This document shows, piece by piece, positions 21,923-38,456 of a DNA stretch of 64,000 bases. Each line of letters opens with the position of its first letter. Within the stretch, counting starts at the first letter, position 1. The DNA comes from an uncultured Alphaproteobacteria bacterium (GTDB taxonomy: Bacteria > Pseudomonadota > Alphaproteobacteria > Rhizobiales > Aestuariivirgaceae): contig CAWKKP010000003.1 of assembly GCA_963850355.1 (NCBI GenBank), forward strand, positions 394,660 to 458,659. The letters are read 5' to 3'. Both the position numbers and the translations under genes were made by a program. The notes below the pieces were generated by a model. The model was not told the origin of the DNA, made no database searches, and was given only the letters and a program-made list of their open reading frames with translations.

Positions 21923-23406
21923 TCAGGCCCGCAGATAGGCGTCCAGCGCCTCGCGTTGCGATGCTGTTAGCACAAGACCGTGTTTGGTGCGCCGAAACAG
22001 AATATCCTCAGCCGTCTGCGCCCATTCATGTTTGCGCAAATAGGAGACTTCCACCGCATAAAGCAGACCGCCAAAATGCTGTCCCAAATCATCAACACTC
22101 TGAGCGTCCTTCAGGATCAACGCAGCTCGCGTGCCATAAAGCCGCGCATAATGCGTCACCAAGTCTTTCGGAAGTCCGCTGTACCGAGCCAGCAACTTTC
22201 CGAGGAAACCATCGAAATCACCATTCGGAATATCGCCGCCGGGCAGGGCAGCCGTCGCCGTCCAGTCCCCACTCATCTCGGGAAAGTAGGGCATGAGTTT
22301 CTGCAACGCATGCCCAGCCAACTTGCGATAGGTCGTGATCTTTCCACCAAACACAGAAAGCAGTGGCGGCTCACCTTCAACCTCGAAAACATAGTCACGG
22401 GTCACAGCCGAAGGATTGTCAGCATTGTCGTCATAAAGCGGGCGCACACCGGAGAATGAATGTAAAACATCCGCACGCACCAACTGCTTGCGGCTGTAAC
22501 GGTTCACCGCATCAAGCAGATATGAAATTTCAGTCTCAGCGATTGCGACTGTCTCAGCCTCGCCTTCATGCGGAATATCAGTTGTACCAATGAGTGCCAA
22601 ATTGCCTTGATAGGGGTTTACAAAAATCACTCGCTTATCAGTGTTCTGAAACAAATAAGCGTTAGGGCCGTCCCAAAATTTCTCAACAATGATGTGAGAG
22701 CCTTTCACCAGTCGCACTTTGCGCTTTGAGTTTGAACCCGTAACCGCCGTCAGAACTTTCTCAACCCAAGGCCCCGCTGCATTGGCAATTGCTTTGGCAT
22801 TTACATGTCGCACAGTGCCATTTGCGATTTCAATTCCACATCCCACACGCCATCAACACGACGAGCCGAAACTGCGCGTGTGCGCGTGTAAATCGTTGCA
22901 CCGCGTTCTTGAGCGTCCATCACATTCAATATAACAAGCCGCGCGTCGTCAACCCAACAATCTGAATATTCGAAAGCCTTGCGATACTTTTGTTGTATCG
23001 CATTTCCTTCGGGGTCGAGTGACAGATCAAGTGTCCGCGTACCAGGTAAATTTACCCGTCCACCTAAGTGGTCATACAGAAAAAGCCCAAGGCGGATCAG
23101 CCACGCTGGGCGTTGTTCGGGCGAGTGCGGAATGACAAAGCGCAGAGGCCAAACAATATGTGGTGCCGCATTGAGCAGCACTTCGCGTTCTATGAGAGCC
23201 TCACGCACCAATCGAAATTCATAATACTCGAGATAGCGCAACCCACCGTGAATGAGTTTGCCTGATCGCGAAGACGTGCCTTGTGCAAAGTCATCTTTTT
23301 CACAGAGCGCGACACGAAGTCCGCGACCTGCTGCATCGCGCGCGATGCCAGCACCGTTAATGCCGCCGCCAATGACGAGAAGATCAACTATCGCACTGTC
23401 TTTCAT
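21923..23406 (-). CDS. eryB: FAD-dependent polyol-phosphate dehydrogenase, GlpD/EryB type (1-base deletion near 22830)
   Basis: GGGINGAGIARDAAGRG, GTSSRSGKLIHGGLRYLEYYEFRLVREAL, DPEG, LVKGSH and GGKITTYR. Adding one A joins ..VELKIANGTVR..; ~494 aa, downstream of an eryA-like kinase. Confidence 0.8.
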
Positions 23407-23415
23407 AACAACACC

Positions 23416-24459
23416 TCAGCAGCGATTTATGGCAGGTTCACCCGCTAGATAACGTCGCACTTCTTCTGCTGCCAGTCCCGCTGCATATCTCACCGTATGA
23501 ACAGATGCGCCTGCAATATGCGGCGTCAACGTCACATTCGGCAATTGCAGCAACGGCAAATCCGGTGGAACAGGTTCGACGTTGAAAGTTTCCAGCATGG
23601 CACCGCGCAAATGCCCCTCCGACATCACACGATACAATGCGTCATAATCCAACAGCGGACCACGCGCGGTATTGATCAACGTGGCATCAGGTTTCATACG
23701 GCGCAGCATTTCTTCATTGATCATTTTAGTGGTTTCAGGCGTAACGCGCGCATGCAGAGAAATGACGTCTGCCTCGTCCAACACCTTATCAAGCGATGCA
23801 TGAACAACACCGTCGCGTAAATCTTCGGCAGTCAACTGCACATAGGGATCGCTGACGAGAATACGACAGCCGAACGCTTTCAGGAACTTCACAACCCGGC
23901 GTCCCACTTCGCCGTAGCCGACCAGCCCCACCGTCATTTCGTGTAACTCGCGGCCTGCAACATCAGCGCGATACAGGTCTCCGCGGTAGTTCCCCTTACG
24001 CAACGCGTCATGACCTCGCGTGATATTGCGCGTTTCCGAGAGGATCGCACCAATTGTAAACTCCGCAACTGCCGATGCATTGCGGCCCGGTGTATTAACG
24101 ACTGTAATGCCACGTTCACGCGCCGCGTTCATATCAATGTTCACAGGGCCACCACGCGAAACCGCCACAAATCTGAGATGTGGCAAACGTTCCATGATTT
24201 GGGCTGACAATGGGGCAAGATGTGTCACTAGAATTTCAGCATCAGCGACCAATGCCACAACCTCATCCGCCGTCCCCATGTATTCCTTGAGTCCATCCAT
24301 ACCAGGCGCCGCATAACCATGTTCCATCGGCTGATCCGGCCATTGTAAGTCATGGACAGAAATATCGAATTCGTAAAGTTTGCAGCGGTCGCGCAAGGCT
24401 TCTTCAAACATCTGGGAAAGCATGAACAAATCACCAATCACAGCGACTTTGCGTTTCAT
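23416..24459 (-). CDS. D-isomer-specific 2-hydroxyacid dehydrogenase family protein
   Basis: NTPGRNASAVAE, VGLVGYGEVG, LHAR, INTARG and TPHIAG; start overlaps the kinase stop. Confidence 0.9.
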   Translation of the reverse strand: MKRKVAVIGDLFMLSQMFEEALRDRCKLYEFDISVHDLQWPDQPMEHGYAAPGMDGLKEYMGTADEVVALVADAEILVTHLAPLSAQIMERLPHLRFVAVSRGGPVNIDMNAARERGITVVNTPGRNASAVAEFTIGAILSETRNITRGHDALRKGNYRGDLYRADVAGRELHEMTVGLVGYGEVGRRVVKFLKAFGCRILVSDPYVQLTAEDLRDGVVHASLDKVLDEADVISLHARVTPETTKMINEEMLRRMKPDATLINTARGPLLDYDALYRVMSEGHLRGAMLETFNVEPVPPDLPLLQLPNVTLTPHIAGASVHTVRYAAGLAAEEVRRYLAGEPAINRC

Positions 24460-26011
24460 CTCGTTGCTCCAAGTCCACGCCAAATGGGTCGCATGGCTTT
24501 GCGGGATTCGACGTAATGGGGAAATACCTTTTCATATCGCGCCGTCAATGCTTGTTCCGGTGCGGTCGTGTCACCAAGATGCGGCTCTACCCAAACCTCA
24601 GCACACTCCGTCATGTTGGAATAGAGCTTCTGCTGCACGGCAGCGATCATCGCGGCTCCTGCCGCACCTGATTCTTCTCGCGACACACTGCGTATGCCGG
24701 CATCGAGAACATTGGCGAGGATCGCGCGCAATGCTTTGGAACGTGCTGCACCACCCGTCACACGGATTTCCATGGGCATGGGCCCCATAGCCAGATAACA
24801 ATCACGCGCGGCAAATGCCAAGCCCTCAAACACACTGCGCATCATGTCGTAGTAATCCGTCGTCGTATCGAGACCATTAAACATTGCGCGAGCTGACGGC
24901 TCCATAAAGGGGCCACGTTCACCGGCCTTCGAGATATAGGGATGAAAAAGCAGTTTGGCCGGTTCGCGTGACAAGATTTTGTCGTCAATAGATTTAAGCA
25001 AATCAGCACGCGATTTTTCTACACCACTGTCTTGCAATATGCCGCGTGCCACATCAAGCCACCAGTCAATGTTTAATGTCGAGGCCATATTGGACTGGAT
25101 TTGCGCCACCATGCCAGGTGCGGGAAAAGCCATGGTGTAACCTGATTTTTCAGCATTCAATTGCACTTTCAACACATCAGACTGCAACCGCATATGCATG
25201 CCCGTCGATCCAACAATCGTACAACCAGACTGTCCCGTGGGATCATACTAGACCTCCACCAAGGCCAGTACAGAGAACATCGACATAGCCCAGGCAAACC
25301 GGAGTGCCCTTTTTCAAACCTGTGGCTTTTGCAGCTGCAGCGAGTGAGTTGCCCGCAAACATCAGTGCCATCGACAATCGGTGTTAACACTGATTTTGCA
25401 TTCGGGGCGCCAAGCTGATCGAGAATGTCAGGCAGATACGATCCTGACTTTTATAATCACCGAAAGTGAAGTTCGCTTCAGAAGGATCAGTCACCCTTTC
25501 GCCAGTGAGATTAAAATAGATCCAATCCTTGCAATGAAACGCATGGGTTGCCTTGGCCAAAACTTCAGGGCGGTGTCGATGCATCCACGCCAACTGCACA
25601 CTCATTTGACAGACATTCACGCCAGTTCCGGTGCGCGCATAATGCGCCGCATAATTCCCCCGACGTCGTGAACTCTTCGACGATTTCAGCAGCGCGCGCG
25701 TCAAGCCACAACCATGCGGGCGCTACCGGTGCCCCCGACTTATCAATCAGCCACATACCGTCACCTTGTCCCGTGACCGAGATTGCGATGAGCCGTGACG
25801 CAAGGTCGGGAATCTGTTCTGTGAGCTGCTTCAACGTGGCTGCCGTATCGCGCCATGTCCGCTGCATATCCTGTTCTACGCCACCATCAGGTAGTGTTTC
25901 GTAACTGTTGGTAACTGCGGCTGCAGCAAGCTGCGTGCCATCAGTTGAAAATGCAACGGACTTGATAACGGATGTACCCGCGTCAATACCAATAATTATG
26001 CCGTCCGTCAT
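24456..26011 (-). CDS. eryA: FGGY-family polyol kinase, erythritol kinase-like (four frameshifts at ~25659, 25440, 25342, 25249)
   Basis: IIIGIDAGTSVIK, VTGQGDG, WLDARA, HCKDW..LTGERVTDPSEANFTFG, GSTGMHMR and GERGPF. The pieces reassemble to ~517 aa and resemble Brucella EryA as I recall it. Confidence 0.75.
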
Positions 26012-26027
26012 TATCGCTCCAACGCAA

Positions 26028-27526
26028 TTAGCCCATGACCTTGGTGCCAAGGCTGTGGCCCACGTTGGCAACAGTTACAGGCTTCGCAACGCGCATTTCT
26101 TCTACGCTGCGCACATGTTGACGTGCAGCACCCGCCCAATCGCGTGTCTTCACTTTTGGATTGCGCATCCGTTCTTTTGCAGCTGGAATTGCGTGTGCGT
26201 ATTGAGGCAACCACTGGGCCTGCGCCACTATCATTTCATCAACCATCTGCCACACTTCATCCGGTGTACAAATGGCGCCAACAAGTGGATCATGCAACAC
26301 CGCTAGCTTCAGCAATTCCACATCACCCGTCATGGCGGCCTGTACCGACATGCGCTGCACGTTAATTGAAGACATGCAGGTTGCAGCACAGGCCAATGGC
26401 AATTCAATACCTTCCATCATATTGATTCCGAAATCGATCAACATATCCAGGTGATTCAACAATGCAATCTGTAGGAAGATTCTTGATCGTGCCGCTATTC
26501 TTAACATTGAAGTGGCCGCGATAGCCGCGTCCCGTTTCCATCGCTTCGATGATCCAGGACGCATGCTCATCCGTGCGTTGATAGTCCGCAAGCATTTTTC
26601 CAGCCTGTTCTAGAAACTGTGGAAAGTCTTGCTCAAACCAGTTCCGATTTTCAGTGCTGTAGCGCAGATATCCACCCGTCTCGCCGTGGATCCAGTCTGT
26701 CAACGAAATCCATTTGGTAATGTCCTCTGGGCGCTTGCGGTACCACGGCAGATATTCGGACAAATGCCCATTGGATTCCGTCGAATAAAATCCAAATCGT
26801 TTCAATACATCAATGCGGACTTTTTCTTGATCGGCAAATAACGGATGACTTCTCGAATGCCGCCACCAATTCATCCTTTGAAATCGTGCGTCCCTTGTGA
26901 TTGAGGCCAACATACCAAGTCTGGTGATTGATGCCCGAACAGATGATATCAAGTTCCGTGTGGTCTTTGATCTTCAGAGCCTGTGCAATCTGCCGCCATC
27001 CATTTTGTACGCCGTGACACAAACCAACGGTGTTGACCTTCCCGTAATCGATACAAGCCCAGGTGTTCATGGCCATGGGGTTGGCATAGTTGAGATGAAG
27101 CAAATCGCTATGGGCGAGTTCACGCATGTCTTTGCAGAAGTCCATCATGGCAGCCATGGTGCGCTGGCCATACATGATGCCGCCTGCGCAAATGGTGTCG
27201 CCGACGCATTGGTCAACGCCATACTTCAAAGGAATGTTGACATCAGTGGCATAGGCCTCAAGCCCACCAATGCGCACGCAGTTCATGATATATTTAGCAC
27301 CATCAAAAGCTTTGCGGCGGTCCGTTGTGGCCGTCACTTTCGTTGGCAACTTGTTCACATCAACAATGCGTTGAATGATTTGGGTGGCCATATCCAAGTT
27401 CTTGGCACTGATGTCTGTAAGTGCGATCTCAATGCCAGCGAATTCAGGGACTTTCAAAATATCACTGACAAGTTTCTTGGTAAACCCAATAGAACCCGCA
27501 CCAATGATTGCAATCTTGAAAGTCAT
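26028..27526 (-). CDS. Family 4 glycoside hydrolase, alpha-galactosidase-like second paralogue (frameshifts at ~26848, 26432)
   Basis: KIAIIGAGS, DTICAGG, NYANP, GLCHG, GINHQTW, TESNGHLSEY, VESP and DPLVGA. Removing two bases gives ~498 aa. Confidence 0.88.
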
Positions 27527-27536
27527 GACACGTACC

Positions 27537-29045
27537 TCATAAACTCCGTAAAAATGCTGCGTGTCCCAAAGCTTGTGGCGCGGCAGCGCGATATTCCCGC
27601 GTCAAACTATCAGCTGCAGCCTTAGCCTTCTTCTTCAATTCAGGCATGGCTTCCATCTGCTTTTGTGCAACGTCGCGATTGAGCAATCCCAATCCATCCA
27701 ATACCGGATAATGCAATTGCTGTTCAGTGTGGGCAAATCGACCCGGCAGGGGTGTGAAATCAGAGTAGTCAGGCATTTTGTTTTGCCAGGCCGCAAGGCG
27801 ATCTTTCGTCGGATTTCCAATGCAATGCTCGGCGACATGTTTCCAGAACGGCGTATCGCGCCGCGTTGTGACATAGTGCAGATTAATGAAATCGCGAAAG
27901 TCATCGACCTGGCGGCTTACAAAGGCGTTGTAAGTCTCGCGGTCTTGCACAACGCGGTTCATATGGAAATTTGTGAACACCATCATCTGCACCACGGTTC
28001 CGTGGATAGAAGTGGCTTCCAAGGGTTCTAGAAATGATGACGACAAGCCCAACGACAAGCAATTGTTGATCCAGGCATCTTTCTGGCGTCCCACATCAAA
28101 GCGCAAATCATTGCGCGGCTCAATCTTGTGTCCGAGAGTTTTCTCAATCTCGGCCTGAGCCTGCTCCGGATTCAAAAACGCATCGGAATAGACATAGCCA
28201 CAGCCAAAACGGGTTTGCGTGGGGATGGACCACAACCATCCGGAGTTTTGTGCCCAAGCCAGCGTATAGGGCGGAATTTCTTCCCCCTCTTTTAGATCAA
28301 TCCAAAATGGCATGGCCCGGTTGACAGGCAGTTGATCGCGGTAGGATACCCATTCGCCACCTAGCTCTTTGCCAATCAAGCTTTTGCGAAAACCAGTGCA
28401 GTCAAAGAAAAATTCGCCTTCAACCGGTTCACCATCGGTGAGCAGTTTTGTAATGTCTCCAGTTTCCGAACTGCGTTCCACGCCCATCACCTGCGCATCA
28501 ACCGTCACAACGCCTTTAGACTTTTTGCGCAACCATTTGCCCGCAAGCGCCTGATCAAAATGATAGGCATGGTGATAGGGACTCATGGCAATCAGATCGC
28601 CATTTGTTTTGCGCGCAAAAGGCGATTTATTCTGATCTAGCAGATAGCCGAACAAATGAGTGTCCGATACTTTTCGGCCTGCTGCTACAGAAAATATGTC
28701 GATGTAACTCTGCGGCACGCCACCTTGCGTCTCTAACACTAAATGCGGATCATCGATAGGACCGTCATACTGATGGCCCACCGCCTTCCAATCTTTATGC
28801 CTTATGCCGAATTTGATTGTCGCTTCCGTCTGGTGCAGAAACTCAAATTCGTCGAGGCCCAAGTGTTTCAACAATTGCCGAAACACTGCCGTTGTGCCTT
28901 CGCCCACACCGATGGTCGGAATCTTCGAGGATTCGACAACGGTGATCGTCGCATCCAACTTCTGACGCTTTGCCGCATCTTGCAACATTAACGCTGCAAG
29001 CCAACCCGCCGTTCCACCACCAACGATGACGTACCGCATTGTCAT
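27537..29045 (-). CDS. Tryptophan halogenase family flavin-dependent enzyme
   Basis: GGGTAGW FAD motif, IGVGEGT, ATIK78FG (position of PrnA K79), DCTGF, GWLWSIP (WxWxIP) and FLEPLEATSI; intact 502 aa. Confidence 0.9.
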   Translation of the reverse strand: MTMRYVIVGGGTAGWLAALMLQDAAKRQKLDATITVVESSKIPTIGVGEGTTAVFRQLLKHLGLDEFEFLHQTEATIKFGIRHKDWKAVGHQYDGPIDDPHLVLETQGGVPQSYIDIFSVAAGRKVSDTHLFGYLLDQNKSPFARKTNGDLIAMSPYHHAYHFDQALAGKWLRKKSKGVVTVDAQVMGVERSSETGDITKLLTDGEPVEGEFFFDCTGFRKSLIGKELGGEWVSYRDQLPVNRAMPFWIDLKEGEEIPPYTLAWAQNSGWLWSIPTQTRFGCGYVYSDAFLNPEQAQAEIEKTLGHKIEPRNDLRFDVGRQKDAWINNCLSLGLSSSFLEPLEATSIHGTVVQMMVFTNFHMNRVVQDRETYNAFVSRQVDDFRDFINLHYVTTRRDTPFWKHVAEHCIGNPTKDRLAAWQNKMPDYSDFTPLPGRFAHTEQQLHYPVLDGLGLLNRDVAQKQMEAMPELKKKAKAAADSLTREYRAAAPQALGHAAFLRSL

Positions 29046-30418
29046 TCAGCAGCTTGCCGTGGTTTATGCACGCGGGCAAATTCCGGCAACCAGTCTCCGT
29101 GGGCGGCCAGCAAATCATCGGTCAGATCCCAAATTTGTTGGAGATCCAATTCTGCCGCTGTGTGTGGGTCCATCATAGCGGCGTGGTAAATGTGTTCCCG
29201 ATTTTGGTCCACCAATGCACGCACTGTAAGCTCCTGCACATTGATGTTGGTGCGGATCAGCGCTGTTAACTGTGGTGGCAGAGCGCCCACGTAAGTCGGT
29301 TGGATGCCGCGATCATCTACCAGACAGGGTACCTCTGCTGCACAATCATCCGGCAGTGAAGTGATGCAACCATTGTTGCGCTGGTTGCCGTAGATGACAG
29401 ACGGTTCACCAGTCCAGACCGAGTTAACAATGGAGGATGCATATTCGTGCGACGCTTCAACTTTGATGGTTTCTGCAGCTTTGAAATCAGCCGAGTTTTT
29501 TTTCCAACGGGCAATTTGTTCGATGCAGCGCTTTGGATACTCGTCCAGTGGAATACCAAATTTCTCGATCAAGTCCTCGCGGCCCTCTTTGATAAAGTAC
29601 GGCGTGTACTCTGCGAAATGCTCTGAACTTTCAGTAACGAAATAACCAAGCCGCTTCAACATTTCATAACGCACCTTGTTGGGGCAACGCAGATTCCAGT
29701 GGGATGGCTTGGGGAATCGGCCTTCTTCATAGCCACGCAATAAATCAGGATACAAGTTGCGATACGAACCGTCTTTCTGGCGGTGCTCGAAATTCAAGTA
29801 GAACGCCATGTGGTTAATACCTGCCGCACGGTAGCGGATTTCCTCAACCGGGATGTCAAGATCACGCGCCAGTTCGTAAGCCGTGCCCTGTACGGAATGA
29901 CACAAGCCCACTTGTTTGATCTTGGGGTATTTCTGCGAAATGGCCCAGGTGTTAATTGCCATGGGGTTCACATATTGCAGCAAATGCGCGTCAGGGCAGA
30001 TTTGCATCATGTCCTCGCAAATCTTCCAAAGATGCGGCACGGTACGGAGGCCGCGCATAATGCCACCGACGCCCAAGGTGTCGGCAATGGTTTGGCGCAA
30101 ATTGTATTTCTTTGGCACTTCAAAGTCAGTGACAGTGCACGGTTCGTAACCACCAATTTGAAATGCAACCACCACGAAGTTTGCACCTTGTAGCGCATTC
30201 TTTTGATTGGTGTGGGTTTCAACCTTGGCTTTCACACCAAGCGTCTTGATGATTTTTCCAGCAACAATTTCAAACTCACTCAAACGCTCAGGGTTGATAT
30301 CCATCAAAGCGATGGTAGCGCCCGACGTAGCGGGACGTTGAAGTATATCGCCGATGATATTTTTCATGAACACTGTTGAGCCAGCGCCGATGAACGTAAT
30401 ACGTGGATTTGCGGACAT
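29042..30418 (-). CDS. melA: Alpha-galactosidase, GH4 (MelA-like)
   Basis: RITFIGAGSTVF, QTIADTLGVGG, QYVNPM, GLCHSVQG, AGINHMA, TESSEHFAEY and AMMDPHTAAEL; intact 458 aa. Confidence 0.92.
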   Translation of the reverse strand: MSANPRITFIGAGSTVFMKNIIGDILQRPATSGATIALMDINPERLSEFEIVAGKIIKTLGVKAKVETHTNQKNALQGANFVVVAFQIGGYEPCTVTDFEVPKKYNLRQTIADTLGVGGIMRGLRTVPHLWKICEDMMQICPDAHLLQYVNPMAINTWAISQKYPKIKQVGLCHSVQGTAYELARDLDIPVEEIRYRAAGINHMAFYLNFEHRQKDGSYRNLYPDLLRGYEEGRFPKPSHWNLRCPNKVRYEMLKRLGYFVTESSEHFAEYTPYFIKEGREDLIEKFGIPLDEYPKRCIEQIARWKKNSADFKAAETIKVEASHEYASSIVNSVWTGEPSVIYGNQRNNGCITSLPDDCAAEVPCLVDDRGIQPTYVGALPPQLTALIRTNINVQELTVRALVDQNREHIYHAAMMDPHTAAELDLQQIWDLTDDLLAAHGDWLPEFARVHKPRQAAE

Positions 30419-30435: not shown

Positions 30436-32058
30436 TCAAGCAGCAATGTCAAATGCTGCGCGCACAAGGCGCTTGGTGTAGTCGGTTTTAGGGTTGGTCA
30501 ATACATCGGCCACGGGACCGTGTTCCATGATTTTTCCGTTCTGCATGACGATGACGCGGTGGCACAAAGCCCGCACCACTTTCAAATCATGGGAGATGAA
30601 TAGATAAGAGAGCCCGCGCTCGCGTTGCAGTTTGCGCAAAAGTTCAATGATCTGGGCCTGCACCGATAGATCCAGCGCCGACGTCGGTTCATCCAACATG
30701 ATGAATTCTGGTTCCATGGCAATGGCGCGGGCGATGGCCAAGCGTTGACGTTGTCCCCCTGAAAATTCATGGGGGAAGCGCGAGAGAATATCCGTGGGCA
30801 TGCCGGAATCGGTGAGGGCCTGCTTCACCCGTTCCAGTCGATCTGCATCGCTGCTGCCAATACTGTTGACGATCAATCCCTCTTCAATAATTTGCCGCAC
30901 ACTCATGCGCGGGTTCATGGATGAGAAGGGATCTTGAAACACAATCTGCATGCGTTTGCGGAAAGGGCGGAGGCCATCTCGGTCAAGTTTTTCAATGCGA
31001 CGACCATCAAAACTGATCTCGCCCTCTTGCGGATTGAGCAATCGAATAAGGGCTTGGCCAAAGGTGGTTTTGCCCGAGCCAGACTCACCCACGAGCCCTA
31101 AGGTTTCGCCGCGCTTCAAATCTAAACTCAATCCATCAACGGCTTGCAGCGGGTGATAGGTGGCATTGAAAAATCCACCCTTCTTGAGTGTGTAAGTCAC
31201 CCGCACATTGTTGCCCACCAGAATGCTGGGTTGTTCACCCACCAGCGGATTGGCAATGCCTTTGGGGTCTGACGACAACAAACGTTTGGTGTAAGGGTGC
31301 TGCGGTTTTTCAAACAGTGCTTTGGTGAGGTTATGCTCTTTCACCTCGCCATGCTGCATCACGTAAACACGATCCGCAAATTGGCGCACCACCGTCAAAT
31401 CATGGGTGATCAGAATCACAGCCATGCCGTACTTGTCTTTGAGGTCTTTGATCAGGTTTAGAATTTGCGCCTGCACAGTCACGTCCAGCGCCGTCGTTGG
31501 TTCATCGGCAATCAAAATATCGGGGCGATTTGCCAGTGCCATGGCAATCATCACGCGTTGGCGCTGACCACCAGAGAGTTGATGCGGATATTGCTTGATG
31601 CGCGATTCAGGATCAGGAATTTGCACTTCACGCAAAAGCTCCAGCGCCTTGGCTTGGGCGTCCTTCCGAGAGATTTTATTGTGGAGGTGCAGCACTTCGC
31701 AGATTTGCGAACCGATGGTGTAAACTGGATTGAGGGAACTCATTGGTTCCTGAAAAATCATAGATACACGCGAGCCGCGCAGCTTCCGCATTTCGTTTTC
31801 CGGCAGTTTCAAAACATCTTGCCCCGCCATGATGATTTGTGCGTCTTTGCCAACTGTCGCGCGCTTGGTCAGCAGCCGCATGATGGCGCGGGCGGTGACG
31901 GATTTACCTGAACCTGACTCCCCCACAATCGCGATCGTCTCACCTTTGCGCAAAGCAAAGCTGACGTTCTTAACCGCATTCACAACGCCGCCCTCCACTT
32001 TGAAGGACACGGCCACATTGCGGGCTTCGAGGATAATGTCGTTGGTGTTTTCCATCAT
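30436..32058 (-). CDS. agpD: ABC transporter ATP-binding protein with two NBDs (peptide/nickel family), alpha-galactoside importer
   Basis: Two GESGSGK Walker A motifs, LSGGQRQR and FSGGQRQR, two DEPT motifs; start at 32058 or 32055. Confidence 0.9.
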   Translation of the reverse strand: MMENTNDIILEARNVAVSFKVEGGVVNAVKNVSFALRKGETIAIVGESGSGKSVTARAIMRLLTKRATVGKDAQIIMAGQDVLKLPENEMRKLRGSRVSMIFQEPMSSLNPVYTIGSQICEVLHLHNKISRKDAQAKALELLREVQIPDPESRIKQYPHQLSGGQRQRVMIAMALANRPDILIADEPTTALDVTVQAQILNLIKDLKDKYGMAVILITHDLTVVRQFADRVYVMQHGEVKEHNLTKALFEKPQHPYTKRLLSSDPKGIANPLVGEQPSILVGNNVRVTYTLKKGGFFNATYHPLQAVDGLSLDLKRGETLGLVGESGSGKTTFGQALIRLLNPQEGEISFDGRRIEKLDRDGLRPFRKRMQIVFQDPFSSMNPRMSVRQIIEEGLIVNSIGSSDADRLERVKQALTDSGMPTDILSRFPHEFSGGQRQRLAIARAIAMEPEFIMLDEPTSALDLSVQAQIIELLRKLQRERGLSYLFISHDLKVVRALCHRVIVMQNGKIMEHGPVADVLTNPKTDYTKRLVRAAFDIAA

Positions 32059-32062
32059 CACC

Positions 32063-33214
32063 TCAATAGGGGTCAATCGCATCGCGTAAGCCATCGCCCA
32101 GCGCATTGAATGCGAAGACGGCGAGCAGCACGAAACCAACGGGTGAGAGAATCCACGGATAGGAGCCGATGACCGAGAAGGTGCCAGTATCTTGCAACAT
32201 CAACCCCCAGGAAATCAGCGGTGGCTTCACGGCAAATCCTAAGAAGCCAAGGAAAGATTCCAACAACACGATGGCCGGTATGCCAAGTGTGACCGCCACG
32301 ATCACATGCGACATGACGTTTGGCAGAATGTGCCGCAAGATAATGCGCTTGTCGCTGGCACCCACAGCTTGTGCCGCACGCACATATTCAATGCGGGCCA
32401 GCGACAAGGTTTTGGCGCGCACTTCAACCGACAATCGGGCCCAGCGAATAAGCGCCATGACGATGACCACAAATATCAGAAACACGGATGTTGGTGCCGT
32501 AACAGGAATGAGGGTTGTTAAAGTGAGGAAGAGCGGCAGTTCAGGGAAGGCCAGAAAGATTTCCACAACACGTTGCGTCCAAGTGTCAAAGCGCCCACCC
32601 AAATAGCCTGATGTCATACCCACCAAGGTTCCAACGATGGTGATAAAAGCCACTGTCACCAAGGCAATGGCCAATGAAATCCGTGAGCCGACAATCCCTC
32701 GTGATAAAATATCGCGACCGAATTTGTCAGTGCCCAGCAGATGAAAAGGTTTGCCATCATCGGTTCCAAATAAATGCAAGTCGGATGGAATGAGCCCAAG
32801 TGTCTTATACTTATAACCCCGCACAAAGAACTTGATGGGACGCGGATTATCATAGTCCGGCCCGATGAGGGGTTGGAACGTTATGGGGTCCAACTCTGTG
32901 CCTTCTTTCATGGCATAGGTTTGTGGGCGGAGCGTATAACCGTCTTTGCCAGAAAAGCCTGACGGATCAGGTGGCGCATAGGCAATGAACGGCGTCTTTG
33001 GTTCGACGGGTGCCACAAAATCCGCGAATACGGCGATCAGCAACAACAAGCCAACCAATATCAATCCCAACATGCCAGTGACGGAACGGCGCAACTTGCG
33101 CCACACCAGTGTGGCGTAGCCTTCGCTTTTAGCAAAACGAGATGAAGCGGGTGCTGCATCAAGGTAGGATGCATCTTCTTGCTTCACGAAGGGTGCGAAC
33201 AGATCTTTGCTCAT
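32063..33214 (-). CDS. agpC: ABC transporter permease (OppC-like)
   Basis: LGTDKFGRD, RIEYVRAAQAVGA and ILRHILPN; synteny with agpA. Confidence 0.88.
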   Translation of the reverse strand: MSKDLFAPFVKQEDASYLDAAPASSRFAKSEGYATLVWRKLRRSVTGMLGLILVGLLLLIAVFADFVAPVEPKTPFIAYAPPDPSGFSGKDGYTLRPQTYAMKEGTELDPITFQPLIGPDYDNPRPIKFFVRGYKYKTLGLIPSDLHLFGTDDGKPFHLLGTDKFGRDILSRGIVGSRISLAIALVTVAFITIVGTLVGMTSGYLGGRFDTWTQRVVEIFLAFPELPLFLTLTTLIPVTAPTSVFLIFVVIVMALIRWARLSVEVRAKTLSLARIEYVRAAQAVGASDKRIILRHILPNVMSHVIVAVTLGIPAIVLLESFLGFLGFAVKPPLISWGLMLQDTGTFSVIGSYPWILSPVGFVLLAVFAFNALGDGLRDAIDPY

Positions 33215-34212
33215 GCCGCATCTCCCAAACGAATGCGGGGGTCCATCCAGGCCAGCAACATATCTGCGAGGATATTGCCAAGTATGAGTGTTGCACCCAA
33301 TATCAACATCAAGGTGCCCGTCACCAAAACATCGCCGCGATACATGGAGCCGACAATGGCAGGGCCAATAGTTGGCAGTGAAAAAATAATGGCAACTTCA
33401 ATTTCGCCCGTGAGCATGTAAGGCAACACAACAGCCTGATAGCCGATCAGCGGATGCAACGCATTCGGCACGGCATGTTTCATGATGACGCCGGCTTCGC
33501 TCATGCCCTTGGCGCGCGCGGTTTCAACATATTGGGCGTTCAAAGTGTCAAGCAAGTTGGCGCGCATGACCCGCATGTTATAAGCGAGGCCGCCAATGGT
33601 TGCGATCAACACAACAGGCCAAATGTGTCTCACCAAATCCAGAAATTTTGCCCACGACATGGGCTGGCCACCATACTTCGTCGAGTAAAATGAACCCAGT
33701 TCCTGCACATTGAAGTGGAATGCCATGAAGTAAAGAATGATCAGCGCCATAAGGAAACGCGGGATGGTCATGCCGAGGAATGTGAAAATCGAGAGAATTG
33801 TATCAACCCAGGAATACTGTTTGGTGGCTGCCAAAATACCGAGGCCGATGCCAAACAGTGTTGCCAAGAAATGGCAAACCAAAGCGATGCCAAGCGTTGC
33901 AGGCAAACGTTGCCACACTACTTCTGAAACCGGCCTGTTGTAAAAATAACTGTGCCCGAAATCACCGACAAAAAAGCCTTTAATCCAGCGAAAATATTGG
34001 AAGACAATGGGGTCATTCAGGCCATTATCGATACGGAATTTTTCTGCAGCGGCACGCGCCACTTCGTCAGACACATTGTTGAACAGCAACATGCCCTCAA
34101 TATAGTCTGCGTAATCGCCAGGCGGCGCCTGAATGATGCCATAGGTCAGCACGCTCATCACGAAGAGAACGGGAATGGCGGAGAAAATGCGTATGGTGAA
34201 ATAGCGGAGCAT
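33211..34212 (-). CDS. agpB: ABC transporter permease (OppB-like)
   Basis: APPGD, GDFGHS, YVETARAKG and HAVPNA; ATG 34212 preferred. Confidence 0.88.
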   Translation of the reverse strand: MLRYFTIRIFSAIPVLFVMSVLTYGIIQAPPGDYADYIEGMLLFNNVSDEVARAAAEKFRIDNGLNDPIVFQYFRWIKGFFVGDFGHSYFYNRPVSEVVWQRLPATLGIALVCHFLATLFGIGLGILAATKQYSWVDTILSIFTFLGMTIPRFLMALIILYFMAFHFNVQELGSFYSTKYGGQPMSWAKFLDLVRHIWPVVLIATIGGLAYNMRVMRANLLDTLNAQYVETARAKGMSEAGVIMKHAVPNALHPLIGYQAVVLPYMLTGEIEVAIIFSLPTIGPAIVGSMYRGDVLVTGTLMLILGATLILGNILADMLLAWMDPRIRLGDAA

Positions 34213-34232
34213 GGGGATTCTGAGAAAAGAAC

Positions 34233-34358
34233 GAAGAGACCTCACCCACCACTGCTTCGCAGCGGTCCCCCTCTCCAGAGGAGAGGGAGAGGCTTAATGC
34301 GCTCCCAGTCGCTTCTCCTCCGGAGAAGCTGGCGCGCAGCGCCTGATGAGGTCTCTTC
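34233..34358. repeat. RIME/REP-like palindromic intergenic element
   Basis: 12-bp terminal inverted repeat GAAGAGACCTCA..TGAGGTCTCTTC enclosing internal hairpins (CCCTCTCC..GGAGAGGG, CTTCTCC..GGAGAAG, GGCGC..GCGCC) typical of alphaproteobacterial mosaic repeats. Confidence 0.8.
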
Positions 34359-34365
34359 CTTTTCG

Positions 34366-36435
34366 TTACTTCATCACACCCTTGCCACCTGGCACATCAG
34401 CCAGTGTGTTCGGGTACACTTCGTGTGACGCTTGCTTGTCCTTTGGCACATACACGCGCTCACGGATGATGTTATCTTCAGCCCAGTTGTACATGAAGAT
34501 TGGAGCGCCCGGCGCAATATTGGCAAAGCGCTTGTTCATGATGAGTGCACCTGGATACTGGGTCAGACCAGCCCAGTAGACATTCTCAGTCGCGATCTTC
34601 TGGTAGTCCTTCATCAAAGCAATACGTTCAGCTGTGTCTTTCGACGCGATGAACTTGTTGACGATCTCTACCAACTGCTTTTCGAAGTCGAGCAAATCAA
34701 CCTCACCCTTGCCGTCACCCGACTGATGGAACTCGCTGGTTGTTGGTCCGATTGGTGCCAGTCGTGCGGTGTTTTGCACAGCGGTCGACAGCTCCTGATT
34801 GGCGCGCCAGACGTGCCAGTCAAACTTGCCGGACTTGCGGGCGTTGTCGCGGTCATTGCCAGCCATCAGGTTGGGAATGATGCGCAGGCCGACTTGCTCA
34901 CCCATGGCGACGATGCCTTCGGCAAGAGACTTGTCTGAACCATAGTCCAAATTGCTCAACACTGTGATTTCAACATCCTTGCCACCATCTGGGTGGTTCA
35001 GAATACCGTTACCATCAGTGTCTTTCAAACCGGCGAGGGCAAATTCAGCTTTTGCGGCTTCCACATCGAACGGATAATAAACCGTCGAAGCTTTGTCGTA
35101 GTAGGTATTGTCGCCGTAAAGGCCGCCGGGATAAATCGCGGTGAACGGACCTTTCACCAATGACTCGCCCAAGCGTTGACGATCCAACATTGAGGTCACG
35201 CCTTTGCGGAAGTTCAGGTTGCGGTTCAACTTGCGCATCGACTTGGCGCGATCATCGGGTTCACCCCAGGCATTGTCGCTCAGGTTAAAGTGCAACACAT
35301 AGCCGATGGTGCGTTGGCCAAATTCAAGTCGGGCTGGTGAAGCAGGGTCAGCCGCTTTCTTGAGAGCTTCAACATAGTTTTCAGCTTGCTCAAGGTTTGA
35401 GAAGTCGCCTGTGCCTGCAACGGCTTGCACGTCACGATCGCCCCATGTGGACAAACGGTAATGCATTTCATTGAGGTAGGGCAGCTGCTGGCCAGTTTCG
35501 TCCACTTTCCAATAATAGGGATTGCGGCGCAGAATCACGATGTCATCGGGGCGGTGTTCAACCACAACCCAAGCACCCAGTGTTGGCATGCCCATATAGG
35601 ACGGACCAAAAGCATTCTTATACTGCTCATAGGTGTTCTTGGAATTCTTCGGATGCTGCGGCGCCAAGATATGCGACGGGCCAGGGCAGAAGTTCATGTA
35701 GGACATGGAATACAGAACTTGCGTCGGGAAGGCGTCCTTGAACGTCCACTTGATGGTGTAGGCATCAACTTTTTCAAGTTCGGTTCCAGCACCAAATGTT
35801 TCAACCGACTCACCACCCAAAGGATTGACCTCAGGATCTTTGATGTTGAATTCCCAGTGATACATGATGTCATCGGCGTCAAAAGCGTCACCGTCAGACC
35901 ATTTGGCACCTTCGATCAGCTTCATCGTCAATTGTTTGCCGTCAGCCGACCATTCCCAAGATTTGGCAACGTTTGGCAGCGGGGCCAATTCTTCAGCCTT
36001 CACCTGGAACAACGGTCCGGTGCGCGTCAGGCATTCCTGCAAACCAATGTCGATGCCGCCCCAACCTTGTGATTGACCAGCCCAATAGTTCCAACCCTCA
36101 GGACGACCACCAATGACGTGGCGCATAACATCGCCATAGACGCCAACGCCGTCTTTCATGTTGCCGGTTTTGTAAACCATTGGCTCTTTTGGCAGGCGGT
36201 CTTTCACAGCGGGCAGCTTGCCAGCGTCAACCAAAGCTTTCACAAAGTCTGGCTCGCTATAGGCAGGCAGCGCTTTATATTCGAGAATGTCGTTGATGCC
36301 GACAAAAGTGACTTTGCCTTGGGCATCGAACGCAGGCGCATCCGGCACGGCTGTCATCATGGCATCGGCCATGACAGCAGTTGCCGAAACACCCAACGCC
36401 AGCATGCCGGCGACAAGGGTTGTAATTTTTTTCAT
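34366..36435 (-). CDS. agpA: Alpha-galactoside-binding periplasmic protein (SBP family 5)
   Basis: Signal peptide; GVYGDVMRHVIGGRPEGWNY, QGWGGIDIG, CPGPSHIL and NWAEDNIIRERV closely match Sinorhizobium AgpA as I recall it; lies upstream of GH4 genes. Confidence 0.9.
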   Translation of the reverse strand: MKKITTLVAGMLALGVSATAVMADAMMTAVPDAPAFDAQGKVTFVGINDILEYKALPAYSEPDFVKALVDAGKLPAVKDRLPKEPMVYKTGNMKDGVGVYGDVMRHVIGGRPEGWNYWAGQSQGWGGIDIGLQECLTRTGPLFQVKAEELAPLPNVAKSWEWSADGKQLTMKLIEGAKWSDGDAFDADDIMYHWEFNIKDPEVNPLGGESVETFGAGTELEKVDAYTIKWTFKDAFPTQVLYSMSYMNFCPGPSHILAPQHPKNSKNTYEQYKNAFGPSYMGMPTLGAWVVVEHRPDDIVILRRNPYYWKVDETGQQLPYLNEMHYRLSTWGDRDVQAVAGTGDFSNLEQAENYVEALKKAADPASPARLEFGQRTIGYVLHFNLSDNAWGEPDDRAKSMRKLNRNLNFRKGVTSMLDRQRLGESLVKGPFTAIYPGGLYGDNTYYDKASTVYYPFDVEAAKAEFALAGLKDTDGNGILNHPDGGKDVEITVLSNLDYGSDKSLAEGIVAMGEQVGLRIIPNLMAGNDRDNARKSGKFDWHVWRANQELSTAVQNTARLAPIGPTTSEFHQSGDGKGEVDLLDFEKQLVEIVNKFIASKDTAERIALMKDYQKIATENVYWAGLTQYPGALIMNKRFANIAPGAPIFMYNWAEDNIIRERVYVPKDKQASHEVYPNTLADVPGGKGVMK

Positions 36436-36625: not shown

Positions 36626-37575
36626 GTGGTGAAGAAGCCAACACCCTCAACCGAAGTCATGTCGCCGGAGCGGCGGTTCTATTCCCGCAGCAAGGCGTTT
36701 GGCCGTTTCGGCATGCGTATTTTCAAGCCAACATTGATGGCTCATCCTCATTGGCATGGTCATGTCGAGGCAAACTTCGTCCGCAATGCCCGCTTACATT
36801 ATATCGTCGATGGTGAGCGCTTGGTTGTCGAGCCAAACCAATTGGTTTTATTTTGGGCTGGCGTGCCGCATCAACTGGTTGCTGTCGAAAACCTCGAAAA
36901 ATCAGAAGCTGAACTTTGCAATATCTACCTGCCGCTCGACACATTTCTGTTCATGCCCCACATCGCAAATTTGCAAGTCGCATTGCTCACTGGCGGCATG
37001 GTGGTTTTTCCGCACGATCTTTGTGTTTCGGACATTTTAAGCGATGGTACATTGATTACCGCGCCAATGATCCAGAACGATTGGACATTTTGAAACTGGA
37101 ACTCAGTGCCGTGTTTCGCCGCGTTGGTTTGGCTCCCTTGGAGTTTCTGAAAAAACCCTGGCAGCTCCAATCTGAATCCAACAGCTTGCATTCACCCCAT
37201 GTGCGCCATGTGGTAGCGATGGTGCGCCATGTGTTGGAAAATATTGCCGAGCCATTGCGCAATGAAAATGTGACCCGCGTTACGGGCCTTCATACCAACT
37301 ACGCACTGGTGCTTTTCACCCGCACCATGAACATTTCCTTGAAACAATTCATCATCCGCATGCGACTTCTAAAGGCCCGCGGCATGCTACTCGAAAGCGA
37401 TTTGGCCATTACGACGATTGCTGCTGAAAGCGGCTTTGGTTCAACAAGCCAGTTTTATGCGCATTTTTCAGCGGCCTATGATACCTCACCGCAACAATTG
37501 CGCGACAACTACCTGAAGTCCTCGGTCAAAGCGGCGTTGATAAACGCGCAACCCAGAAACGCGATTCCAGCCTGA
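36626..37575 (+). CDS. AraC-family regulator, MelR/AgpT-like (1-base deletion near 37035)
   Basis: Cupin HWHGHVEANF..FWAGVPHQL in 36626..37093; C-terminal HTH (GLHTNY..MRLLKAR..SGFGSTSQFY) in 36916..37575; divergent from agpA. Confidence 0.88.
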
Positions 37576-38335: not shown

Positions 38336-38428
38336 GGCAAACTCCCGTTTTTGAGATAGCGCAGCTTCCGATGTTTACGTGCTGTCGTCCAGAGAATTCA
38401 TTGACAAGTCAGCCATTCCGGATTGAAC

Positions 38429-38443
38429 TTTGATTCAATCAAA
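38429..38443. promoter_or_regulatory. Perfect 7-1-7 palindrome, candidate operator
   Basis: TTTGATT-C-AATCAAA between a TTGACA (38401-38406) and the GGGAG RBS of the epimerase gene. Confidence 0.45.
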
Positions 38444-38456
38444 AGCGGGAGTCGTC

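What the first reader, a model, noticed from the sequence alone, without database searches (positions are those of the whole stretch)
27537..29045. Tryptophan-halogenase-family gene translationally coupled between two GH4 alpha-galactosidases
Seen: an intact 502 aa ORF whose ATG overlaps the melA stop and whose stop is 10 nt from the second GH4 start. It retains GxGxxG, K78 (PrnA K79 position), WxWxIP and FLEPLE, but has A-T-S where PrnA has S-T-G after the conserved Glu. No flavin reductase or NRPS/PKS gene lies in the window. Known: halogenase-like genes often sit beside TonB receptors and glycosidases, with unresolved function. Inference: a role in sugar or aglycone catabolism or modification rather than natural-product biosynthesis. 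I do not recall this gene in the agp-mel locus.
Basis: partly seen in the sequence, partly recalled or inferred. Interest (0 to 1): 0.8.

Follow-up and report, generated by a model that had tools for sequence, protein, structure and literature searches.

The report
Halogenase-family enzyme inside alpha-galactoside operon
A soil or freshwater alphaproteobacterium carries an intact halogenase-type flavoenzyme wedged between two alpha-galactosidase genes; it belongs to an undescribed branch of the family that almost always sits next to such sugar-splitting genes, which gives a concrete way to test what these orphan halogenases do.

Summary
Window 27537-29045 (- strand) is an intact 502-aa PF04820 protein. 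Its ATG overlaps the stop of a MelA-type GH4 gene, and its stop lies 10 nt before a second GH4 gene. It keeps GxGxxG, K78, WxWxIP and E343.

Near-identical contigs from other runs lack these indels, so I read them as assembly errors.

All 45 orthologous loci (46-86% identity; Hyphomicrobiales, Devosia, Paracoccaceae, Amaricoccus, Roseibium, Pelagimonas) lie in an alpha-galactoside ABC importer/GH4 cluster. A GH4 gene is seen in 43; two contigs are too short. A 38%-identity relative keeps the GH4-halogenase pair beside a different transporter. The GH4-linked loci form one well-supported branch, distinct from Trp halogenases and from BrvH/Xcc4156-type orphans. The catalytic Lys and Glu are conserved. 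The indole/Trp-binding residues are replaced or deleted.

In 151 genomes of the order, 5 carry the gene. All 5 also have both GH4 types, and 10 GH4a-bearing genomes lack it.

Most likely it is a working two-component halogenase acting on a polar, non-indole substrate tied to alpha-galactoside use. The substrate is unknown, and I found no published description. I rate it a new variant of a known kind, of moderately high interest.

The parts
27537..29045 (-). Flavin-dependent halogenase-family gene (502 aa) of the GH4-linked clade
   Evidence: PF04820 at 357 bits. K78, E343 and WxWxIP are conserved across 43 clade members. The AF2 model has pLDDT 91.5 and TM 0.82-0.88 to PyrH, PrnA, BrvH and others. 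No indel appears in other runs.
29042..30418 (-). GH4a, a MelA-type alpha-galactosidase (458 aa); its stop overlaps the halogenase ATG (ATGA)
   Evidence: PF02056 and PF11975. NF011657 at 684 bits against a cut-off of 486. Sequence read.
26028..27526 (-). GH4b, a second GH4 glycosidase (about 498 aa in relatives), starting 10 nt after the halogenase stop; split into three frames in this assembly by +1 insertions near 26850 and 26434
   Evidence: The three pieces match GH4 N- and C-terminal domains in order. Relatives have it in one frame at 494-498 aa. The extra bases are absent in contigs of 3-4 other runs.
30436..32139 (-). Fused double ABC ATPase of the importer
   Evidence: Syntenic in 40 or more loci. 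Pfam labels come from the orthologous locus L071.
32063..34245 (-). Two ABC permease genes (33211-34245 and 32063-33214)
   Evidence: Synteny. BPD_transp_1 in the orthologous locus L071.
34366..36435 (-). Periplasmic alpha-galactoside-binding protein (family 5 SBP, 689 aa)
   Evidence: PF00496. 992 bits over the full length to PDB 6EPY, 'Periplasmic alpha-galactoside-binding protein'.
36626..37575 (+). Divergent AraC-type regulator (cupin + HTH_18), frameshifted in this assembly
   Evidence: Cupin_2 at 36626-37093 and HTH_18 at 36916-37575. Other runs carry one more base at about 37024-37038. The equivalent gene in L071 is intact at 306 aa.
21923..26071 (-). Distal operon genes found only in this lineage: FGGY kinase (frameshifted in the assembly), 2-hydroxyacid dehydrogenase, GlpD-like FAD dehydrogenase (frameshifted in the assembly)
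   Evidence: Pfam. Indels at 25654, 25248 and 22825 are absent or different in other runs. These genes are not conserved next to the halogenase elsewhere.

Best explanation
**What it is.** The gene encodes a functional member of a distinct, so far uncharacterised clade of two-component flavin-dependent halogenases. The clade is an accessory module of alpha-galactoside utilisation loci of the agp/mel type.

**Expression (inferred from gene geometry).** It is made from the same mRNA as the GH4 alpha-galactosidases and is translationally coupled to them.

**Mechanism (inferred by homology).**
- FADH2 comes from a reductase encoded elsewhere in the genome.
- FADH2 reacts with O2 and a halide to give a hypohalous acid.
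- The acid is held as a haloamine on Lys78 and positioned by Glu343.
- It then halogenates an electron-rich carbon of the substrate.

**Substrate (unknown).** The pocket has lost the aromatic residues that clamp indole or tryptophan and has gained His, Asp and Gly. The substrate is therefore not tryptophan. It is probably a more polar molecule supplied by the pathway: the imported galactoside, its released aglycone, or an enolisable keto-sugar made by the NAD-dependent GH4 enzyme.

**Shown versus inferred.** The clade, its conserved linkage to GH4 genes, retention of the catalytic residues and loss of the Trp-binding residues are shown. The halogenating activity, the substrate and co-transcription are inferred.
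For: **Family and fold.** PF04820 at 357 bits. The AF2 model (pLDDT 91.5) superposes on PyrH, BorH, PrnA, Xcc4156 and BrvH at TM 0.82-0.88.

**Catalytic residues.** K78 is kept in 43/43 clade members, E343 in 42/43 and WxWxIP in 42-43/43. dN/dS is 0.03-0.24.

**Context.**
- All 45 loci at 46-86% identity lie in SBP5-permease-permease-ATPase-GH4 clusters. A GH4 gene is seen in 43; the other two contigs are only about 5 kb.
- The stop-to-start gap before the halogenase is -4 to +22 nt in 39 of 45 loci.
- L071 (44% identity) has the same layout.
- L073 (38%) keeps GH4-halogenase inside a different sugar cluster with a CUT1 transporter and a GH2 gene.
- Other arrangements also occur: GH4b-halogenase, and halogenase convergent to GH4a.

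**Tree.** The 43 GH4-linked rows form one side of a branch with SH-aLRT 99, apart from SttH/Tar14 and from BrvH/Xcc4156.

**Census of the same 151 genomes.** The halogenase is in 5, GH4a in 15 and GH4b in 8. All 5 carriers have both GH4 types. By my own hypergeometric arithmetic, the chance that all 5 fall among the 15 GH4a carriers is about 5e-6.

**Transporter.** The binding protein matches the alpha-galactoside-binding protein 6EPY at 992 bits.

**Pocket.** PrnA H101, F103 and F84 are invariant in 13 reference enzymes. In the clade they are G95, I97 and H83. G104 becomes D98, and the Y443-W455 loop is deleted.

**Reductase.** A PF01613 flavin reductase exists elsewhere in the genome.
Against: - No biochemical or expression data exist. 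I could not tell whether any run holding the sequence is RNA.
- 10 of 15 genomes with a GH4a orthologue lack the halogenase, and these are phylogenetically interleaved with carriers. It is therefore not needed for alpha-galactosidase action as such.
- The same branch contains phage-borne copies in a tail-gene module with no GH4, and a stand-alone copy that has lost the catalytic Lys.
- L073 has Gly at the catalytic Glu position.
- No halogenated galactoside-derived metabolite is known to me.
- No flavin reductase is ever adjacent.
- The model is least confident at residues 331-350, the loop carrying E343.
Confidence: 0.45

Rival explanations
1. The clade keeps the halogenase fold but no longer halogenates. 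It would use the flavin for another reaction on a sugar or polyol of the pathway, such as hydroxylation, oxidation or a redox-neutral step.
For: - It sits in a catabolic operon with no natural-product genes.
- The pocket is remodelled towards polar residues.
- L073 lacks the catalytic Glu and P0230 lacks the Lys, so strict halogenase chemistry is dispensable in parts of the branch.
- No reductase is adjacent.
Against: - K78, E343 and WxWxIP are conserved in 42-43 of 43 members. In known enzymes WxWxIP keeps the substrate away from the flavin and so prevents monooxygenation (established knowledge of PrnA/RebH).
- No member of PF04820 with a non-halogenating role is known to me.
Confidence: 0.2
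2. It is a true halogenase whose substrate is unrelated to the sugar, for example a small aromatic or a signal or defence compound. It would simply be co-regulated with alpha-galactoside uptake, using plant or algal galactosides as an environmental cue.
For: - Phage-borne relatives work without a neighbouring GH4.
- Carriers and non-carriers have equally similar GH4a.
- One carrier has the gene convergent to GH4a, not in the operon.
- The related orphans BrvH and Xcc4156 brominate indoles in vitro (PMC5945002, PMC7336383 abstracts).
Against: - The indole-clamping residues H101 and F103 are kept in BrvH/Xcc-type enzymes (10/10) but replaced in this clade.
- Adjacency is to GH4 genes specifically and survives a change of transporter family.
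- Translational coupling is tight in most loci.
- According to earlier notes of this scan (unchecked here), the gene is retained in streamlined genomes. L071, on a 1.3-Mb contig, fits this.
Confidence: 0.2
3. The protein works on or with the GH4 enzyme itself. It would either modify a residue of the GH4 protein or form a physical complex with it, as the flavoproteins LodB, GoxB and QhpG modify a tryptophan of the enzyme encoded next to them.
For: - Coupling to a GH4 gene is conserved and tight.
- There are weak sub-threshold NCBIfam matches to QhpG, LodB and GoxB, at E = 1.6e-7 to 5.5e-5.
Against: - Those matches are far below the cut-offs (25-31 bits against 240-400) and probably reflect only the shared FAD-binding fold.
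- GH4a of carriers and non-carriers is interleaved at 75-86% identity, so there is no sign of a co-adapted GH4.
- The partner can be GH4a, GH4b or a third GH4 type.
- Phage copies have no GH4.
Confidence: 0.07
4. The gene is a passenger with no function in this locus, carried along by chance insertion.
For: - The distribution is patchy: 5 of 151 genomes of the order.
- HAL-less loci have the same remaining gene set.
Against: - Linkage is conserved over 45 loci and at least four different arrangements.
- The gene is under purifying selection.
- Catalytic residues are invariant.
- The gene is intact in several near-identical strains.
Confidence: 0.03

Closest known systems
Tryptophan halogenases PrnA, RebH, PyrH, SttH, Th-Hal, Tar14, AbeH, BorH, Thal (two-component flavin-dependent halogenases)
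   Same: - Same Pfam family and same fold over the full length: TM 0.82-0.88, 27-31% identity. Best sequence match is SttH at 237 bits.
- GxGxxG, the catalytic Lys and Glu, and WxWxIP are all present.
- No fused reductase.
   Different: - The residues that hold tryptophan are replaced or deleted: H101 -> G, F103 -> I, F84 -> H, and the Y443-W455 loop is absent.
- No biosynthetic cluster is nearby; the gene sits in a sugar-catabolic operon.
- It lies on a separate branch of the tree.
Orphan halogenases BrvH (6FRL), Xcc4156 (6Y1W) and Pseudoalteromonas L11 (9LUQ), encoded beside TonB-dependent receptors
   Same: - The native substrate is unknown and they do not use tryptophan.
- The short C-terminal region lacks the Trp loop.
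- S/A-T-S/N follows the catalytic Glu.
- Often found near nutrient-uptake genes. A TonB-dependent receptor is confirmed upstream of the Caulobacter paralogue in L048.
   Different: - This is a different clade. The window protein scores 202-218 bits against them, whereas true members score 420-457.
- They keep H101 and F103 (10/10) and the window clade does not.
- Their partner is an outer-membrane receptor, often with SapC and dioxygenases, and was predicted to make a halogenated siderophore-like compound (PMC2938197). Here the partner is a cytoplasmic GH4 glycosidase with an ABC importer.
Rhizobial/agrobacterial alpha-galactoside utilisation locus (AgpA/MelB-type binding protein, ABC importer, MelA-type GH4, AraC regulator)
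   Same: - The binding protein matches PDB 6EPY at 992 bits.
- There is a MelA-type GH4, two permeases, a fused ATPase and a divergent AraC regulator.
- L082 shows the same set, GH4b-SBP-permease-permease-ATPase-GH4a.
   Different: - The canonical locus has no halogenase (L082; 10 of 15 GH4a genomes).
- Here the halogenase is inserted between the two GH4 genes.
- In this lineage a kinase and two dehydrogenases are appended.
Viral flavin-dependent halogenases (cyanophage VirX1, 6QGM; 'tryptophan halogenase' genes of Synechococcus and Pelagibacter phages)
   Same: Same family. Uncultured marine phage contigs (L076-L078) carry a copy that falls inside the GH4-linked branch and keeps K, E and the Y-x-G-P-x-D-D-P motif.
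   Different: - VirX1 is distant, at 181 bits.
- Cultured-phage homologues are 31-36% identical.
- Phage copies sit in a tail-gene module with no GH4.

Membership tests
Flavin-dependent halogenase family (Pfam PF04820, Trp_halogenase) | Profile match above the curated cut-off over most of the model | tested here: met
   357 bits against a cut-off of 21; residues 6-444 cover model positions 3-429 of 458.
Flavin-dependent halogenase family (Pfam PF04820, Trp_halogenase) | N-terminal GxGxxG FAD-binding motif | tested here: met
   G9-G-G-T-A-G14-W15, invariant in 43 clade members.
Flavin-dependent halogenase family (Pfam PF04820, Trp_halogenase) | WxWxIP motif | tested here: met
   W270, W272 and I274 in 43/43 and P275 in 42/43; aligned to PrnA W272, W274, I276 and P277.
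Flavin-dependent halogenase family (Pfam PF04820, Trp_halogenase) | Catalytic lysine (PrnA K79) and glutamate (PrnA E346) | tested here: met
   K78 in 43/43 and E343 in 42/43. The exception is L073, with Gly. The PrnA sequence used was verified as identical to PDB 2apg.
Flavin-dependent halogenase family (Pfam PF04820, Trp_halogenase) | Two-domain halogenase fold (FAD-binding box plus helical pyramid) | tested here: met
   AF2 model with pLDDT 91.5 and pTM 0.90. Foldseek E of about 1e-40 and TM 0.82-0.88 to PyrH, BorH, PrnA, Xcc4156 and BrvH.
Flavin-dependent halogenase family (Pfam PF04820, Trp_halogenase) | Halide- and FADH2-dependent halogenation of a substrate | not testable with these tools
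   Needs an enzyme assay.
Flavin-dependent halogenase family (Pfam PF04820, Trp_halogenase) | A flavin reductase available to supply FADH2 | tested here: inconclusive
   One PF01613 gene lies elsewhere in the genome (G000:C8:879143-879583). None is adjacent in any locus. Many known halogenases also rely on unlinked reductases.
Tryptophan halogenases in the strict sense (PrnA/RebH/PyrH/SttH type) | Residues that sandwich the indole and bind the amino-acid moiety (PrnA H101, F103, W455, Y443, Y444, E450, F454) | tested here: not met
   H101 -> G95 (42/43) and F103 -> I97 (40/43). E450, F454 and W455 fall in a deletion. Y443 and Y444 align to variable R/G/N and L/F.
Tryptophan halogenases in the strict sense (PrnA/RebH/PyrH/SttH type) | Location in a secondary-metabolite gene cluster | tested here: not met
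   Neighbours are an ABC importer, GH4 glycosidases, a kinase and dehydrogenases. There is no NRPS- or PKS-sized ORF in the 64 kb.
BrvH/Xcc4156-type orphan halogenases next to TonB-dependent receptors | Sequence clustering with BrvH, Xcc4156 and 9LUQ | tested here: not met
   202-218 bits to these, against 420-457 bits for a Caulobacter member. They are separate groups in the tree.
BrvH/Xcc4156-type orphan halogenases next to TonB-dependent receptors | Adjacent TonB-dependent receptor | tested here: not met
   None in the window cluster. One is present upstream of the paralogue in L048.
agp/mel-type alpha-galactoside utilisation locus | Family-5 binding protein homologous to the alpha-galactoside-binding protein, with ABC permeases and ATPase | tested here: met
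   992 bits to 6EPY over residues 20-686. PF00496. Synteny.
agp/mel-type alpha-galactoside utilisation locus | MelA-type GH4 alpha-galactosidase | tested here: met
   NF011657 at 684 bits against a cut-off of 486 for GH4a, and 306 bits for the N-terminal half of GH4b.
agp/mel-type alpha-galactoside utilisation locus | Growth on or transport of melibiose, raffinose or galactinol | not testable with these tools
   The organism is known only from metagenome assemblies.

The most novel reading that the evidence does not exclude
This clade would be the first flavin-dependent halogenase that works in primary carbohydrate catabolism and not in secondary metabolism. It would carry out a halide-dependent step, stable or cryptic, on an imported alpha-galactoside, its aglycone, or a 3-keto/enol sugar produced by the NAD-dependent GH4 enzyme next to it. 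That would explain why it is always attached to a GH4 gene, whatever the transporter.
Probability: 0.25. Interest if true: 0.85.

Novelty: new variant of a known kind. Interest (0 to 1): 0.65.

Why it matters
Flavin-dependent halogenases are valued biocatalysts. A large share of those in genomes are orphans with no known substrate or biological role.

This clade comes with an unusually clear clue: a conserved, translationally coupled GH4 alpha-galactosidase partner and a defined importer. This narrows the candidate substrates to a short, purchasable list: melibiose, raffinose-family sugars, galactinol, galactosyl-glycerols and their aglycones.

If it acts on a sugar-pathway compound, that would extend halogenase chemistry to polar, non-aromatic substrates and to nutrient catabolism. 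It would also point to an unrecognised step in the turnover of abundant plant and algal galactosides by soil, freshwater and marine Alphaproteobacteria.

If instead it proves to be an unrelated, co-regulated halogenase, the clade still adds a remodelled active site for enzyme engineering.

Tried and rejected
- **Literature.** Six full-text searches found no paper describing a halogenase in an alpha-galactoside/GH4 locus. The terms combined halogenase with TonB, glycoside hydrolase, alpha-galactosidase, melibiose/raffinose, SAR11 and BrvH. The mSystems survey of halogenase genomics (PMC8269204) does not mention glycosidases or transporters.
- **Expression.** A search for RNA runs returned only runs of unknown type, so co-transcription could not be tested. 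The promoter/terminator scan gave background numbers: 11 promoter-like sites against 13.6 expected, and 25 terminator-like sites against 18.4.
- **A conserved third partner.** I looked for a flavin reductase or similar downstream of the halogenase or GH4b. The genes there vary: GalE-like epimerase, GH51, a GFO/IDH/MocA oxidoreductase, M48 peptidase, imelysin, an autotransporter, or nothing recognisable.
- **Pseudogenisation of the distal operon.** I considered this and rejected it, because near-identical contigs from other runs lack the indels.
- **Membership in the TonB-linked BrvH/Xcc4156 group.** Rejected on score and tree position.
- **First gene-calling attempt in related loci.** A greedy choice of the longest ORFs picked spurious antisense ORFs in these GC-rich genomes. 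I replaced it with same-strand chains.
- **One look-up found nothing.** P0122 had no record.
Full report
**1. What is in the sequence**

On the - strand, 27537..29045 is an intact 502-aa ORF.
- Its ATG shares bases with the TGA of the upstream 458-aa gene (ATGA at 29042-29045).
- Its own TGA is followed by 10 nt and then the ATG at 27526 of the next gene. A GAGG overlaps the stop codon.
- The protein matches Pfam PF04820 (Trp_halogenase) at E = 2e-106.

The neighbouring genes are as follows.
- The upstream gene is a MelA-type GH4 alpha-galactosidase: NF011657 at 684 bits against a cut-off of 486.
- The downstream gene is a second GH4.
- Further upstream lie a fused ABC ATPase, two permeases and a family-5 binding protein. 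The binding protein matches the solved 'periplasmic alpha-galactoside-binding protein' 6EPY at 992 bits over its full length.
- A divergent AraC-type regulator follows.
- Downstream of the second GH4 lie an FGGY kinase, a 2-hydroxyacid dehydrogenase and a GlpD-like dehydrogenase.
- The window has no NRPS- or PKS-sized ORF.
- The only PF01613 flavin reductase of the 3.15-Mb genome is on another contig.
- This is the only PF04820 gene in the genome.

**2.

Several genes are frameshifted in this assembly.
- The second GH4 is split into three frames.
- The kinase is split into at least three pieces, the GlpD-like gene into two and the AraC regulator into two.
- Alignment with relatives shows that the GH4 breaks are two single-base insertions near 26850 and 26434.

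I laid contigs of four other public runs on the region. Some were more than 99% identical to the window.
- These contigs lack exactly those bases.
- They also differ by one base at 25654, 25248 and 22825 and at about 37030.
- They show no indel in the halogenase.

The runs come from two different studies. I therefore read the breaks as indel errors of this assembly and treat all these genes as intact in nature.

**3. Is the context conserved?**

A scan of one genome per species returned 66 loci. I mapped the window's proteins onto them with tblastn.

The 45 loci at 46-86% identity come from Hyphomicrobiales MAGs, Aestuariivirga, Devosia, Tabrizicola, Rhodobacter, Cypionkella, Albidovulum, Flavimaricola, Amaricoccus, Roseibium and Pelagimonas. 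All lie in a binding protein-permease-permease-ATPase cluster of the same type.
- 31 have GH4a directly upstream.
- 2 have GH4b upstream, and 2 have GH4a at 199-317 nt.
- 8 have the ATPase directly upstream, with a GH4 elsewhere in the cluster in 6 of them.
- The remaining 2 of those 8 are on contigs of about 5 kb, too short to tell.

The gap between the upstream stop and the halogenase start is -4 to +22 nt in 39 of 45 loci. The gap to GH4b is -4 to +12 nt.

More distant representatives extend the pattern.
- A 44%-identity protein on a 1.3-Mb contig has AraC / binding protein / two permeases / ATPase / GH4 / halogenase / HAD hydrolase.
- A 38%-identity protein sits in 2-hydroxyacid dehydrogenase / GH4 / halogenase / GH2, beside a different (CUT1) sugar transporter.

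The constant partner is therefore a GH4 gene and not the transporter. Genes beyond GH4b vary and never include a flavin reductase.

The 21 loci at 31-35% identity (Caulobacter, Sphingomonas, Asticcacaulis) lack this context.

**4. Where it sits in the family**

Sequence scores place it about equally far from the known groups.
- Against solved structures the best match is SttH (237 bits), then other Trp halogenases, PrnA (216) and BrvH (212). Xcc4156 scores 202.
- A Caulobacter paralogue scores 420-457 bits to Xcc4156, 9LUQ and BrvH and has a TonB-dependent receptor upstream. The TonB-linked orphans are thus a different clade.
- Among 1.84 billion cluster representatives, 1423 match at E < 1e-30. 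The scores fall steeply after the first few.
- All 150 listed representatives score at least as high as the best solved structure, SttH at 237 bits.

I built a maximum-likelihood tree of 188 sequences.
- The 43 GH4-linked rows form one side of a branch with SH-aLRT 99.
- Their common ancestor also covers a few unlabelled representatives.
- One of these (P0137, 37% identity) is on marine phage contigs, next to a tail-assembly chaperone.
- Another (P0230, 28% identity) is a stand-alone gene that has Asn for the catalytic Lys.
- The nearest outside representatives (P0129, P0130) are not next to GH4.

**5. Residues**

My PrnA reference was confirmed identical to PDB 2apg. Aligning against it gave the following.
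- K78 (PrnA K79) is present in 43/43 clade members.
- E343 (PrnA E346) is present in 42/43.
- WxWxIP is present in 42-43/43.
- The one exception to E343 is L073. It has Gly there and a Glu at the PrnA H101 position, which may be a relocated acid.

The positions that clamp indole differ from the references. H101, F103 and F84 are invariant in 13 reference enzymes: PrnA, SttH, Tar14, BrvH, Xcc4156, 9LUQ and 7 paralogues. In this clade:
- H101 is G95, F103 is I97 and F84 is H83;
- G104 is D98;
- these changes form an invariant Y-x-G-P-I-D-D-P motif.

The PrnA Y443-W455 loop, which binds the amino-acid part of tryptophan, is deleted, as it is in BrvH.

Two other results bear on function.
- dN/dS between relatives is 0.03-0.24, with saturated dS. 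The amino-acid rate is about twice that of GH4a.
- An AlphaFold2 model is confident (pLDDT 91.5, pTM 0.90). It superposes on all halogenase subgroups at TM 0.82-0.88 and 27-31% identity. Its least confident stretch is 331-350, which carries E343.

**6. Distribution**

I searched the same 151 genomes sampled from the order.
- The halogenase is in 5, GH4a orthologues in 15 and GH4b orthologues in 8.
- All 5 carriers have both GH4 types.
- GH4a of carriers (86, 80, 78, 75% identity) and of non-carriers (81, 81, 81, 70% and lower) is interleaved.

I fetched five of these regions.
- A same-genus carrier has the window's layout.
- A same-genus non-carrier has GH4a only.
- A large-genome non-carrier has GH4b-binding protein-permeases-ATPase-GH4a, which is the canonical locus without the halogenase.
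- One carrier has GH4b-halogenase.
- One carrier has the halogenase convergent to GH4a, 1.25 kb away.

The gene is therefore an accessory that has been attached to alpha-galactoside loci in several geometries and lost or never gained in others.

**7. Interpretation**

The following are shown:
- a real, selected gene;
- a distinct clade;
- a conserved link to GH4 alpha-galactosidase genes;
- retained halogenase catalytic residues;
- lost tryptophan/indole-binding residues.

The following are inferred:
- It works as a two-component halogenase. FADH2 from an unlinked reductase, O2 and halide would give a Lys78 haloamine.
- It acts on a polar substrate supplied by the pathway.

I put about 0.45 on that full statement. 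The parts are more or less secure: about 0.85 for the clade and its functional link, about 0.55 for halogenase chemistry, and less for a pathway-derived substrate.

The main rivals are:
- a non-halogenating flavoenzyme (0.2);
- a halogenase with an unrelated substrate that is merely co-regulated (0.2);
- action on the GH4 protein itself (0.07);
- a passenger gene (0.03).

The phage copies and the interleaving of carrier and non-carrier GH4a argue against an obligate GH4 protein partner.

**8. Novelty**

Six literature searches and two targeted readings found no description of this association.

The known neighbourhood of orphan halogenases pairs them with TonB receptors, SapC and dioxygenases. 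It was predicted to make halogenated siderophore-like compounds (PMC2938197).

Earlier notes of this scan report the same linkage in SAR11-type genomes. I treated those as leads. I re-derived independently the context, the loss of indole-binding residues, the phage relatives and the 6EPY match.

I rate this a new variant of a known kind, with interest 0.65.

Noticed in passing
window 26850, 26434, 25654, 25248, 22825, about 37024-37038: Single-base indels split GH4b, the FGGY kinase, the GlpD-like gene and the AraC regulator in this assembly. Near-identical contigs from four other runs (two studies) lack them, so they look like assembly errors. The 9 kb from the binding protein to the halogenase has none.
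   Followed up: yes
L076:3744-5246, L077:4999-6501, L078:3154-4656: A 500-aa halogenase from inside the GH4-linked branch (37% identity) lies on marine (Tara) phage-like contigs. It overlaps a tail-assembly-chaperone gene and is followed by a weak TNF/C1q-like protein. It keeps K, E and the Y-x-G-P-x-D-D-P motif.
   Followed up: partly
L073:8001-9536 (and L074): The most divergent GH4-linked member has Gly at the catalytic Glu position and a Glu at the PrnA H101 position, possibly a relocated catalytic acid. Its operon is 2-hydroxyacid dehydrogenase / GH4 / halogenase / GH2, next to a CUT1 transporter.
   Followed up: partly
L079:7001-8575: A stand-alone relative (28% identity) among housekeeping genes (Lpt, cytochrome bc1) has Asn for the catalytic Lys and Asp for the Glu. 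It is probably no longer a halogenase.
   Followed up: partly
window 21923-26071: The FGGY kinase, 2-hydroxyacid dehydrogenase and GlpD-like dehydrogenase are appended to the operon only in this lineage. This hints that the imported galactoside carries a polyol or glycerol-type aglycone. A 2-hydroxyacid dehydrogenase also precedes the GH4-halogenase pair in L073.
   Followed up: no
L084:12840-14390: In one complete genome the halogenase is not in the operon. It is convergent to GH4a, 1.25 kb away, with a Ppx/GppA gene on its other side.
   Followed up: partly
L012:9616-10407, L016:9616-10581: In Rhodobacter/Tabrizicola loci a gene of about 264-321 aa with no Pfam match sits between the halogenase and GH4b.
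   Followed up: partly
window 37583-40505: Beyond the regulator lie a DJ-1/PfpI protein, a xylose-isomerase-like TIM-barrel protein and a UPF0261 protein. I did not examine any link to the locus.
   Followed up: no
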